Part shown: piece after piece, positions 23,996-26,900 of the stretch
Numbering within the stretch: position 1 is the first letter of the stretch
Layout of the letters: each line of letters starts with the position of its first letter
Source: Escherichia coli
GTDB taxonomy: Bacteria; Pseudomonadota; Gammaproteobacteria; Enterobacterales; Enterobacteriaceae
Length of the DNA stretch: 64,000 nt
Reading direction: 5' to 3' (one strand)
Assembly (NCBI RefSeq): GCF_017348835.2
Contig: NZ_CP071375.1
Program-made: the position numbers

Positions 23996-26900
23996 TAAGA
24001 GAATTGCATGAGCAGTAACTTCAGACATCAACTATTGAGTCTGTCGTTACTGGTTGGTATAGCGGCCCCCTGGGCCGCTTTTGCTCAGGCACCAATCAGT
24101 AGTGTCGGCTCAGGCTCGGTCGAAGACCGCGTCACTCAACTTGAGCGTATTTCTAATGCTCACAGCCAGCTTTTAACCCAACTCCAGCAACAACTCTCTG
24201 ATAATCAATCCGATATTGATTCCCTGCGTGGTCAGATTCAGGAAAATCAGTATCAACTGAATCAGGTCGTGGAGCGGCAAAAGCAGATCCTGTTGCAGAT
24301 CGACAGCCTCAGCAACGGTGGTGCAGCGGCGCAATCAACCAGCGGTGATCAAAGCGGTGCGGCGGCATCAACGACGCCGACAGCTGATGCTGGTACTGCG
24401 AATGCTGGCGCGCCGGTGAAAAGCGGTGATGCAAACACGGATTACAATGCAGCTATTGCGCTGGTGCAGGATAAATCCCGCCAGGATGACGCAATGGTGG
24501 CATTTCAGAATTTCATCAAAAATTACCCTGATTCAACTTACCTGCCAAACGCCAATTATTGGCTGGGTCAGTTAAACTACAACAAGGGTAAAAAAGATGA
24601 TGCGGCGTACTATTTTGCTTCGGTAGTGAAAAACTATCCGAAGTCACCAAAGGCTGCAGATGCGATGTTTAAAGTCGGCGTCATCATGCAGGACAAAGGT
24701 GACACCGCAAAAGCGAAAGCCGTATACCACCAGGTTATCAGTAAATACCCTGGTACTGATGGCGCTAAACAGGCACAAAAACGTCTGAACGCGATGTAAT
24801 GCATAACACACGACCAGAAGTCGCATTATTTCTGGTCGTGTCGTGCGAATCATAAGCAGTTGAGTGATCTACATCGAAATTTTTGTTGCGCTCAAGTCTG
24901 AAATCAGTAATATATGCCGCCGTTGCCACGGGATATCAAACAAACCGAAAGCAACGAAAAAGTGGGTCGTTAGCTCAGTTGGTAGAGCAGTTGACTTTTA
25001 ATCAATTGGTCGCAGGTTCGAATCCTGCACGACCCACCACTAACCTAGTTAGTTGTAGTATCCAGCGTAGTATCGGGTGATTAGCTCAGCTGGGAGAGCA
25101 CCTCCCTTACAAGGAGGGGGTCGGCGGTTCGATCCCGTCATCACCCACCACCGGGTCGTTAGCTCAGTTGGTAGAGCAGTTGACTTTTAATCAATTGGTC
25201 GCAGGTTCGAATCCTGCACGACCCACCATTAATTACGGTGGGTTCGGTGGAAGTAGTTTGTAGTATCCAACGCAGTATCGGGTGATTAGCTCAGTTGGTA
25301 GAGCAGTTGACTTTTAATCAATTGGTCGCAGGTTCGAATCCTGCACGACCCACCAATTTTAACATCAAACTCAGATGTTAAGCGTGAAGGATAACGTTGC
25401 GCCAGCAACGGCCCGTAGGGCGAGCGAAGCGAGTCATCCTGCACGACCCACCAATCTTAAAGATTGGCCCCGAGTAAAAATCTTTCAGGTAACACCCGTA
25501 TGGGTCGTTAGCTCAGTTGGTAGAGCAGTTGACTTTTAATCAATTGGTCGCAGGTTCGAATCCTGCACGACCCACCATCCTGAATGATTAAAGCAGCATA
25601 ATCCCGCAAGGGGTCGTTAGCTCAGTTGGTAGAGCAGTTGACTTTTAATCAATTGGTCGCAGGTTCGAATCCTGCACGACCCACCAATGTAAGAAAGCGC
25701 CCTAAAGGCGCTTTTTTGCTATTCAGGCATCCCTCAATTTAACTTTGTAAACCTGATGACATAGTCAGAGCTTACTGTGCAAGCAACTCTATGTCGGTGG
25801 AATTAGGCGTAAAATGACGCATCCTGCACATTAGGCGTAATTCGAGTGACTTTTCCCCACCATTCGACTATCTTGTTTAGCATATAAAACAAATTACACC
25901 GATAACAGCGAATATGACGCTTATGTCGGTTTTAACGTTAAGCCTGTAAAACGAGATGGTAAGATGAGCGTGATGTTTGATCCAGACACGGCGATTTATC
26001 CTTTCCCCCCGAAGCCGACGCCGTTAAGCATTGATGAAAAAGCGTATTACCGCGAGAAGATAAAACGTCTGCTAAAAGAACGTAATGCGGTGATGGTTGC
26101 CCATTACTATACCGATCCCGAAATTCAACAACTGGCAGAAGAAACCGGTGGCTGTATTTCTGATTCTCTGGAAATGGCGCGTTTCGGTGCAAAGCATCCC
26201 GCTTCTACGTTGTTAGTCGCTGGGGTGAGATTTATGGGAGAAACCGCCAAAATTCTCAGTCCGGAAAAAACAATTCTGATGCCGACACTTCAGGCTGAAT
26301 GTTCACTGGATCTCGGCTGCCCTGTTGAAGAATTTAACGCATTTTGCGATGCCCATCCCGATCATACTGTCGTCGTCTACGCCAACACTTCTGCTGCGGT
26401 AAAAGCGCGGGCAGATTGGGTGGTAACTTCAAGCATTGCCGTCGAACTTATTGATCATCTGGATAGTTTGGGTGAAAAAATCATCTGGGCACCCGACAAA
26501 CATCTGGGGCGTTACGTGCAAAAAAAGACGGGCGCAGACATTTTATGCTGGCAGGGTGCCTGCATTGTGCATGATGAGTTTAAGACTCAGGCGTTAACCC
26601 GCTTGCAAGAAGAATATCCGGATGCTGCCATACTGGTGCATCCAGAATCACCACAAGCTATTGTCGATATGGCGGATGCGGTCGGTTCCACCAGTCAACT
26701 GATCGCTGCTGCAAAAGCATTGCCTCATCAGAGGCTTATTGTGGCAACCGATCGGGGTATTTTCTACAAAATGCAGCAGGCGGTGCCAGATAAAGAGTTA
26801 CTGGAAGCACCAACCGCAGGTGAGGGCGCAACCTGTCGCAGCTGCGCGCATTGTCCGTGGATGGCCATGAATGGCCTTCAGGCCATCGCAGAGGCATTAG

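What the first reader, a model, noticed from the sequence alone, without database searches (positions are those of the whole stretch)
25280..25355. Chimeric tRNA gene: valine-type 5' end fused to a lysine tRNA body, predicting a mispaired acceptor stem
The fourth unit of the lysT operon begins GGGTGATTAGCTCAG (identical to tRNA-Val) but continues as tRNA-Lys(UUU) through the anticodon loop and 3' end. The acceptor 5' strand GGGTGAT would face the Lys 3' strand ACGACCC, giving two mismatches (positions 5-68 and 6-67). Its upstream spacer resembles the valT spacer, so this looks like gene conversion or unequal recombination between tandem val and lys genes at the shared TTAGCTCAG block. The product may be a defective or mis-charged tRNA.
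Basis: seen in the sequence. Interest (0 to 1): 0.5.

Follow-up and report, generated by a model that had tools for sequence, protein, structure and literature searches.

The report
Valine–lysine tRNA gene fusion by deletion
A 79-base deletion in this E. coli strain has fused a valine tRNA gene to the lysine tRNA gene next to it, leaving a lysine tRNA gene with two mispaired positions in its acceptor stem; this exact version is not in the genome sets searched, but similar fusions turn up repeatedly in other E. coli genomes, so it is a minor variant of an ordinary kind of mutation.

Summary
Window 25280-25355 (+) is a 76-nt tRNA gene. Its first six bases are those of tRNA-Val(UAC), and positions 7-76 are identical to tRNA-Lys(UUU). 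This leaves G5·G68 and A6·C67 unpaired in the acceptor stem (Rfam tRNA score 68.0 bits, against 79.2 for the four intact Lys copies).

The nearest genomes, PE164 and F2_81, differ from the window in this operon only by having intact valZ, a 3-nt spacer and lysY. PE164 shows 3 SNPs against the window in 58.5 kb. The window lacks exactly 79 bp, and the deletion ends lie in the shared 9-bp block TTAGCTCAG. This is a deletion between short direct repeats, not gene conversion.

The exact allele is absent from 5,426 complete E. coli genomes and from seven lineage relatives. The class, however, recurs:
- 16 complete genomes carry a Val/Lys fusion with the AGAGCA breakpoint, at operon position 2 or 4.
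- EcPF14 carries a fusion made by duplication.
- JL05 carries an out-of-register fusion.
- Enterobacteriaceae bacterium LSJC7 has the identical 76-nt sequence at the lysV position.

The product is probably a poorly matured or unstable tRNA-Lys, which is an inference. Charging with valine is unlikely. An assembly artefact cannot be excluded without reads but is unlikely. Interest is low to moderate.

The parts
24886..24913 (+). Putative lysT operon promoter (TTGCGC, 16 nt, TAATAT, followed by a GC-rich discriminator)
   Evidence: Read from the sequence and inferred from its position upstream of lysT. The strict consensus scan did not flag it. The part aligned from 24900 onward is invariant in all strains compared.
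24964..25039 (+). lysT, intact tRNA-Lys(UUU)
   Evidence: ARAGORN; Rfam 79.2 bits.
25075..25150 (+). valT, intact tRNA-Val(UAC)
   Evidence: ARAGORN; Rfam 65.9 bits.
25153..25228 (+). lysW, intact tRNA-Lys(UUU), 2 nt after valT
25229..25279 (+). lysW-valZ spacer, which is the native 5' leader of valZ
   Evidence: Identical to the same spacer in PE164 and F2_81.
25280..25355 (+). Chimeric gene made of valZ positions 1-6 and lysY positions 7-76. It has anticodon UUU, discriminator A73 and an encoded CCA. G5 (25284) faces G68 (25347) and A6 (25285) faces C67 (25346).
25286..25294 (+). TTAGCTCAG, the single retained copy of the 9-bp direct repeat in which the 79-bp deletion joined valZ to lysY
   Evidence: Alignment with PE164, F2_81 and ATCC 8739. 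It is the longest in-register identical block between the Val and Lys genes.
25356..25455 (+). RtT-like repeat element that normally follows lysY and ends in a partial copy of the Lys 3' end (ATCCTGCACGACCCACCA)
   Evidence: Rfam RF00391, 54.4 bits (gathering score 45), over 25287-25453. Identical in PE164 and F2_81.
25502..25577 (+). lysZ, intact tRNA-Lys(UUU)
25611..25686 (+). lysQ, intact tRNA-Lys(UUU)
25696..25717 (+). Rho-independent terminator of the operon (AGCGCC-CTAAA-GGCGCT followed by a T run)
   Evidence: Read from the sequence. The scan did not list it on the + strand. PMC4176162 describes a Rho-independent terminator of the lysT operon, removed first by RNase P.

Best explanation
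A recent 79-bp deletion in this strain's lineage removed valZ positions 7-76, the 3-nt spacer and lysY positions 1-6. It joined the two genes inside their shared TTAGCTCAG block. The most likely mechanism is slipped-strand mispairing (RecA-independent deletion) between short direct repeats 79 bp apart. The result is a tRNA-Lys(UUU) gene that differs from the normal one only by C5->G and G6->A. It sits behind valZ's leader in the middle of the lysT operon, so it should be co-transcribed (inferred). The acceptor stem keeps only pairs 1-4 and 7, so the transcript is expected to be a poor RNase P substrate and an unstable tRNA. It starts with GGG and has a weak acceptor stem, which is the profile reported for CCACCA or poly(A) tagging and decay. 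Any molecule that does mature should be charged with lysine, not valine. The net effect is the loss of one Val(UAC) gene and the loss or weakening of one Lys gene. The cell can tolerate this because four intact Lys genes and valT remain in the operon, and the valU operon is elsewhere. What is shown: the structure, the breakpoint, the parental arrangement and the recurrence of similar fusions. What is inferred: the slippage mechanism, transcription, poor maturation and lysine identity.
For: The structure and the mismatches are established.

PE164 and F2_81 are otherwise identical across the operon, and PE164 shows 3 SNPs in 58.5 kb. All seven lineage relatives examined have intact valZ.

TTAGCTCAG is the longest identical in-register block between the Val and Lys genes. 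It lies within a 20-nt stretch that matches at 18 of 20 positions.

The same kind of event has happened several times:
- The AGAGCA-breakpoint fusion occurs in 16 complete genomes, at position 2 (valT/lysW) and, in B1S11, at position 4 (valZ/lysY). These sit on three flank haplotypes. CUVM3 and B1S11 share one flank haplotype but carry the fusion at different positions.
- EcPF14 carries a duplication-type fusion.
- JL05 carries an out-of-register fusion.
- The identical 76-nt sequence sits at the lysV position in Enterobacteriaceae bacterium LSJC7.

Folding: cloverleaf energy is -26.4 kcal/mol for Lys and -18.4 for the chimera. The canonical acceptor register has probability about 0.2. The competing fold pairs G2-G5 with C72-C75.

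Literature: the lysT operon is one transcript processed by RNase P in the 3'->5' direction (PMC4176162). tRNAs with unstable acceptor stems are tagged and degraded (PMC5824355). RecA-independent deletion between short direct repeats occurs in E. coli (PMC5426353). The lysT transcription unit as a whole is essential, but its copies are redundant (PMC11480407).
Against: No reads are available, so this one assembly cannot be verified. The exact allele was found in no other E. coli genome, in no metagenome contig and in none of seven lineage relatives. No expression or aminoacylation data exist. The related AGAGCA-type fusion, which has the same two mismatches, persists in a lineage sampled in the USA, Korea, Japan and Vietnam. 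It is therefore at least not strongly harmful and could be functional, which would weaken the 'defective' part of the explanation. Nearest-neighbour folding ignores tertiary contacts and base modifications.
Confidence: 0.75

Rival explanations
1. This is an assembly or consensus artefact: the strain really has intact valZ and lysY, and the 79 bp were lost when the tandem tRNA repeats were assembled or polished.
For: The allele is unique to this window: 0 of 5,426 complete genomes, 0 metagenome contigs and 0 of 7 lineage relatives. The locus is a tandem array of identical 76-nt genes, which is hard to assemble. Some draft contigs and Logan contigs break there (L012-L015).
Against: The junction rests on only 9 identical bases. 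k-mer assemblers cannot join across so short an overlap without reads that carry the junction. Collapse of a repeat would be expected between the identical Lys genes and would give a clean gene, not a chimera (inference). The rest of the window is of high quality: 3 substitutions and no 1-bp indels against PE164 in 58.5 kb. Equivalent fusions occur in 16 or more independently sequenced complete genomes, including one allele shared by isolates from four countries. The class is therefore biological.
Confidence: 0.12
2. The chimera is a fully usable tRNA-Lys isodecoder. The G·G and A·C mismatches are tolerated, and it contributes normally to the lysine tRNA pool, so only valZ is effectively lost.
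For: All LysRS identity elements I know of (anticodon UUU and A73; my own knowledge) are intact, as are the whole body from position 7 and the encoded CCA. The score is still far above the Rfam tRNA threshold (68 against 29). The sister AGAGCA-type fusion, with the same acceptor mismatches, is stably inherited in widespread lineages. The identical 76-nt sequence sits in the lysV position of LSJC7.
Against: Two adjacent mismatches leave a 4-bp terminal helix. The predicted loss is about 8 kcal/mol, with a competing register. E. coli removes tRNAs that have unstable acceptor stems (PMC5824355). Persistence is equally well explained by neutrality, given the gene redundancy. The LSJC7 operon also holds a Val-type gene with a TCC anticodon, which suggests decay or sequence errors there.
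Confidence: 0.25
3. Gene conversion rather than deletion: a Val gene donated its leader and first six bases to a Lys gene without any loss of DNA.
For: The upstream spacer is Val-type. In LSJC7 the gene count (three Val-type genes plus the chimera) leaves conversion as a possibility there.
Against: In the window the operon has six genes and is exactly 79 bp shorter than in PE164, F2_81 and five further relatives, which are otherwise identical. Every base is accounted for by a simple deletion.
Confidence: 0.02
4. The chimera is mis-charged with valine (or another amino acid) and inserts it at lysine codons.
For: The 5' acceptor strand is that of tRNA-Val, and A73 is shared by both tRNAs.
Against: ValRS recognition depends mainly on A35 and C36 (my own knowledge of published identity studies), and the chimera has U35 and U36. 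The Val D-loop bases are not retained in this allele.
Confidence: 0.03

Closest known systems
Val/Lys fusion genes already present, annotated simply as tRNA-Lys, in the lysT operon of 16 complete E. coli genomes (for example APEC O2-211, CUVM3, E2, Z1323CEC0003, TUM3755, TB4019 and B1S11)
   Same: The same operon and the same collapse of a Val-Lys gene pair separated by 2-3 nt. The 5' acceptor strand is the same (GGGTGAT), so the G5·G68 and A6·C67 mismatches are the same. Six genes remain instead of seven.
   Different: Their breakpoint is in or after the AGAGCA block, so they also carry the Val D-loop bases C16 and G20. The window's breakpoint is in TTAGCTCAG and keeps the Lys D loop. Most affect valT/lysW (position 2); only B1S11 affects valZ/lysY as here. 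I found no paper describing them.
Fourth gene of the gltX-adjacent Val-Val-Val-Lys operon of Enterobacteriaceae bacterium LSJC7 (AMFN01000003.1)
   Same: The 76-nt sequence is identical to the window chimera.
   Different: It is a different genus and a different operon (the lysV position). The Val genes there share a 20-nt block with Lys. A 40-nt Val-type spacer precedes the chimera, whereas Cronobacter and Scandinavium have 4 nt there. The origin (deletion after duplication, or conversion) is unresolved, and the genome is a draft assembly.
RecA-independent deletion between short direct repeats (slipped-strand mispairing) in E. coli
   Same: One repeat copy is retained, the intervening DNA is lost, and the repeats are short (9 bp) and close together (79 bp) (PMC5426353).
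   Different: The mechanism is inferred from the junction only. Independence from RecA was not tested.
Hybrid tRNA genes formed by recombination between tRNA genes in other systems (louse mitochondria, PMC3514963; a chimeric tRNA gene at an integration junction in Rickettsia peacockii, PMC2791219)
   Same: The products are mosaics of two different tRNA genes with altered secondary structure.
   Different: The genomes and contexts differ. Here the event is a simple tandem deletion in a redundant bacterial tRNA operon.
Copy-number variation of the lysT operon by recombination between identical Lys genes or RtT-like repeats
   Same: The same unstable tandem array. Lys-type hits per genome range from 2 to 11, with a median of 6. 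O157 PV15-279 has five genes. Spacers gain and lose RtT-like units.
   Different: Those events leave intact genes. This one crosses between non-identical genes and leaves a mispaired product.

Membership tests
tRNA gene, tRNA-Lys(UUU) (Rfam RF00005) | Cloverleaf covariance score above the family threshold | tested here: met
   68.0 bits against a gathering score of 29; intact copies score 79.2. ARAGORN calls it tRNA-Lys.
tRNA gene, tRNA-Lys(UUU) (Rfam RF00005) | Anticodon UUU, discriminator A73, encoded CCA, and a body identical to E. coli tRNA-Lys | tested here: met
   Positions 7-76 are identical to the four intact Lys genes.
tRNA gene, tRNA-Lys(UUU) (Rfam RF00005) | Seven-pair acceptor stem | tested here: not met
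   G5·G68 and A6·C67 are unpaired. The canonical register has probability about 0.2.
tRNA gene, tRNA-Lys(UUU) (Rfam RF00005) | Matured, aminoacylated with lysine and used in translation | not testable with these tools
   This needs tRNA sequencing, northern blots or charging assays.
Val/Lys fusion tRNA genes of enterobacterial Val-Lys arrays | 5' part identical to tRNA-Val(UAC) and 3' part identical to tRNA-Lys(UUU), joined in a block shared by both | tested here: met
Val/Lys fusion tRNA genes of enterobacterial Val-Lys arrays | Closest relatives carry the unfused Val-spacer-Lys pair at the same place | tested here: met
   PE164, F2_81 and five further loci.
Val/Lys fusion tRNA genes of enterobacterial Val-Lys arrays | Other, independent members exist | tested here: met
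   16 genomes with the AGAGCA type at two positions, plus EcPF14, JL05 and LSJC7.
Deletion by slipped-strand mispairing between short direct repeats | Direct repeats flank the lost segment in the parent, and one copy is left at the junction | tested here: met
   TTAGCTCAG occurs in valZ and in lysY, 79 bp apart, and a single copy remains at 25286-25294.
Deletion by slipped-strand mispairing between short direct repeats | Independence from RecA and dependence on replication | not testable with these tools
   This is a genetic test.
Assembly collapse of a tandem repeat | Junction inside a long, near-identical repeat | tested here: not met
   Only 9 identical bases (18 of 20 in the wider block) lie at the junction. 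The identical 76-nt Lys genes were not the ones joined.
Assembly collapse of a tandem repeat | Reads contradict the assembled junction | not testable with these tools
   No reads are available. Logan contigs of related samples stop at the first Lys gene.

The most novel reading that the evidence does not exclude
The recurrent Val-Lys fusions may not be mere decay products. They might be maintained as working tRNA-Lys(UUU) isodecoders with an altered acceptor stem (and, in the AGAGCA type, an altered D loop), selected to tune Val/Lys tRNA dosage or to escape tRNA-targeting nucleases. The AGAGCA-type fusion carries C16, and U16->C is reported to impair cleavage of E. coli tRNA-Lys by the PARIS effector AriB (PMC12409363). 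The window allele keeps U16, so for it the case rests only on the acceptor-stem change.
Probability: 0.06. Interest if true: 0.6.

Novelty: new member of a known kind. Interest (0 to 1): 0.3.

Why it matters
For this strain the consequence is small: one valine tRNA gene is gone, and one of six lysine tRNA genes is replaced by a copy that is probably crippled, in an operon whose copy number varies anyway.

The wider point is modest but concrete. Val-Lys gene pairs separated by 2-4 nt are a recurrent breakage point in enterobacterial tRNA arrays. The resulting genes are annotated as ordinary tRNA-Lys or tRNA-Val even though their acceptor stems are mispaired. tRNA gene counts and tRNA-adaptation estimates taken from annotation will miscount them.

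These alleles are also natural test cases for how much acceptor-stem damage E. coli tRNA processing and quality control will accept.

Tried and rejected
1. Normal allele. I searched 5,426 complete E. coli genomes with the junction plus spacer and with the 76-nt gene alone. There was no exact copy. The best hit was 75/76, a lysT G6A point variant in strain 2013C-3264.

2. Metagenome contigs searched for the 40-nt junction gave 0 hits.

3. Independent assemblies of the same strain. Exact CpoB and NadA look-ups returned only relatives with the intact 1,243-nt intergenic region, or contigs that end at the first Lys gene. Many similar places were not shown, so the source assembly itself was not identified.

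4. Inheritance of the LSJC7 chimera in a clade. The nearest GltX proteins are only 93% identical (Cronobacter, Scandinavium), so no close relatives are available. Those genera have the normal Val-Val-Val-4 nt-Lys arrangement.

5. Reciprocal Lys-5'/Val-3' chimera: none found. Chimera with its breakpoint in the anticodon loop: none found as a single piece.

6. The promoter and terminator consensus scans did not flag the operon's promoter or its + strand terminator. Both were read by eye instead.

7. Literature searches for a description of Val/Lys hybrid genes in E. coli found none.

8. Gene conversion and valine mis-charging were considered and rejected (see the rival explanations).

Full report
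**What is there.** The window carries the E. coli lysT tRNA operon between cpoB and nadA. ARAGORN finds six tRNA genes: Lys 24964-25039, Val 25075-25150, Lys 25153-25228, Lys 25280-25355, Lys 25502-25577 and Lys 25611-25686. The fourth begins GGGTGATTAGCTCAG, as the Val gene does, and from position 7 to position 76 it is identical to the other four Lys genes. The Rfam tRNA model scores it 68.0 bits, against 79.2 for the intact Lys genes. It marks exactly two non-canonical pairs, 5-68 (G·G) and 6-67 (A·C).

**Where it came from.** The flanking 20 kb is 100.0% identical to two pig isolates, PE164 from China and F2_81 from Australia. Over 58.5 kb the window differs from PE164 by three substitutions, a 6,029-bp absence in a prophage, and the tRNA change. 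Both relatives have the usual seven genes.

The alignment shows that the window lacks exactly 79 bp: valZ from position 7, the 3-nt spacer, and lysY up to position 6. Both ends of the gap fall in TTAGCTCAG, which is present in both genes, and everything else in the operon is identical. Five more loci of the same lineage, found through exact CpoB and NadA proteins, also have intact valZ.

TTAGCTCAG is the longest identical in-register block between the two genes. It is part of a 20-nt stretch that matches at 18 of 20 positions. This is the signature of a deletion between short direct repeats. It is not gene conversion, because DNA and a gene were lost. Slipped-strand mispairing is the likely mechanism (inferred; RecA-independent deletions of this kind are documented in E. 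coli, PMC5426353).

**Is it unique?** The exact allele is. No complete E. coli genome among 5,426 has the junction or the 76-nt gene, and no metagenome contig has it. The kind is not unique.

A control query with the breakpoint moved to the AGAGCA block (Val 1-26 plus Lys 27-76) matched 76/76 in 16 complete genomes, where it is annotated as tRNA-Lys.
- In most of them valT and lysW have fused (operon position 2). These lie on three different flank haplotypes and three spacer architectures.
- In the duck isolate B1S11 valZ and lysY have fused (position 4, the same pair as in the window).
- B1S11 and CUVM3 have identical 950-nt upstream flanks but carry the fusion at different positions, so these are separate events.
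- One haplotype with the fusion is shared by isolates from the USA, South Korea, Japan and Vietnam, so it is inherited and real.

Other cases turned up as well.
- EcPF14 has an extra Val(1-58)/Lys(59-76) gene made by a 111-bp tandem duplication through GGTTCGA.
- JL05 has an out-of-register 78-nt fusion in the valU operon.
- One species-representative genome, Enterobacteriaceae bacterium LSJC7, has the very same 76-nt sequence as the window, but at the lysV position of the gltX-adjacent operon. There the Val genes share 20 nt with Lys.

Val-Lys pairs separated by 2-4 nt are thus a recurrent site of fusion.

**Real or artefact?** No reads are available, so this cannot be settled. Several points argue against an artefact.
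- The junction rests on nine identical bases, too few for an assembler to bridge without reads that carry it.
- A repeat collapse would be expected between the identical Lys genes and would give a clean gene.
- The surrounding consensus has no small indels against PE164.
- The same class of event is documented in many independent assemblies.

I put the artefact at about 0.12.

**What it does (inferred).** The gene lies inside a single transcription unit. RNase P processes that transcript from the 3' end towards the 5' end, one tRNA at a time (PMC4176162). The chimera should therefore be transcribed with valZ's leader.

Nearest-neighbour folding puts the cloverleaf at -18.4 kcal/mol, against -26.4 for normal tRNA-Lys. 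The canonical acceptor register has probability about 0.2. The competing fold pairs G2-G5 with C72-C75, drawing the CCA end into a helix.

tRNAs with unstable acceptor stems are tagged with CCACCA or poly(A) and degraded in E. coli (PMC5824355). The most likely outcome is a poorly matured, short-lived tRNA.

The anticodon UUU and A73, which are the LysRS identity elements, are intact. The ValRS anticodon elements A35 and C36 are absent. (These identity rules are from my own knowledge.) Any mature product should therefore carry lysine, and valine mis-charging is unlikely.

The cell keeps four intact Lys genes and valT in this operon. The operon as a whole is essential, but its copies are redundant (PMC11480407). 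Whether a weak RNase P site in the middle of the transcript delays maturation of the upstream lysT-valT-lysW is an open question that can be tested.

The persistence of the AGAGCA-type fusion, which has the same two mismatches, shows that such genes are at least tolerated. It does not show that they work.

**Comparison and novelty.** The closest things are the unremarked Val/Lys fusions in deposited E. coli genomes. After those come hybrid tRNA genes produced by recombination in other systems (PMC3514963, PMC2791219). I found no paper that describes the E. coli fusions. The window allele is a new member of this class, with a new breakpoint, made by a textbook mechanism. Interest is low to moderate (0.3).

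**Most novel reading not excluded.** Such fusions could be kept as functional, nuclease-resistant or dosage-tuning tRNA-Lys variants. The AGAGCA type carries C16, a change reported to impair AriB cleavage (PMC12409363), but the window allele keeps U16. I give this reading about 0.06.

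Noticed in passing
L025 1501-1576 (APEC O2-211), L026 1501-1576 (CUVM3), L029-L032 3001-3076, L028 3001-3076 (B1S11): Sixteen complete E. coli genomes carry a Val(1-26)/Lys(27-76) fusion gene annotated as tRNA-Lys. In most it replaces valT+lysW; in B1S11 it replaces valZ+lysY. It has the same G5·G68/A6·C67 mismatches and also carries C16, a substitution reported to impair AriB (PARIS) cleavage of tRNA-Lys (PMC12409363).
   Followed up: partly
L009 2222-2297 (= L019 1762-1837, minus strand): Enterobacteriaceae bacterium LSJC7 has the identical 76-nt chimera at the lysV position of the gltX-adjacent operon. 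It is preceded by a 40-nt Val-type spacer, where Cronobacter and Scandinavium have 4 nt.
   Followed up: partly
L009 2106-2181: The third Val-type gene of the LSJC7 operon has anticodon TCC instead of TAC, and ARAGORN calls it tRNA-Gly. All LSJC7 Val genes also carry the Lys-type D loop (T16, T20). This could be an anticodon shift, gene decay or a draft sequence error.
   Followed up: no
L033 1501-1576 (EcPF14): An extra gene, Val(1-58)/Lys(59-76), lies between lysT and valT. It was created by a 111-bp tandem duplication through the GGTTCGA block and is annotated as tRNA-Val, although both its T stem and its acceptor stem are mispaired.
   Followed up: partly
L034 1501-1578 (JL05): The valU operon is reduced to valU plus a 78-nt out-of-register Val/Lys fusion (GGCGG-GG-TTCGAATCC). 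valY and a normal lysV are missing.
   Followed up: no
L010 701-776 (strain 2013C-3264): lysT carries a G6A point change (GGGTCAT), which gives a single A6·C67 mismatch. It was the only near match (75/76) to the window chimera among the complete genomes.
   Followed up: partly
window 25356-25455; compare L002, L025, L026: RtT-like repeat units, each ending in a partial copy of the tRNA-Lys 3' end, are gained and lost between strains. The window lineage has one, ATCC 8739 has three, and others have units after lysQ. These units drive much of the length variation in the operon. Lys-type gene hits per genome range from 2 to 11.
   Followed up: partly
window 54349/54350: Relative to PE164 the window lacks 6,029 bp of the lambdoid prophage next to ybhC (the region from kil through the immunity genes into ninG), 42 bp from the end of an IS3-family element. 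No microhomology is visible at the junction.
   Followed up: partly
L027 1172-1236 (APEC 102026): A 65-nt 'tRNA-OTHER' lies between Val genes in the valU operon of another strain, probably a truncated Val gene.
   Followed up: no
L028 2698-2773 (B1S11 valT); L031 3527-3599 (TUM3755 lysZ); L017, L018: Scattered single-copy point variants occur in individual Val and Lys genes of the operon: a T-loop T->A change in B1S11 valT, a 73-nt lysZ call in TUM3755, and one-base variants in two lineage relatives.
   Followed up: no
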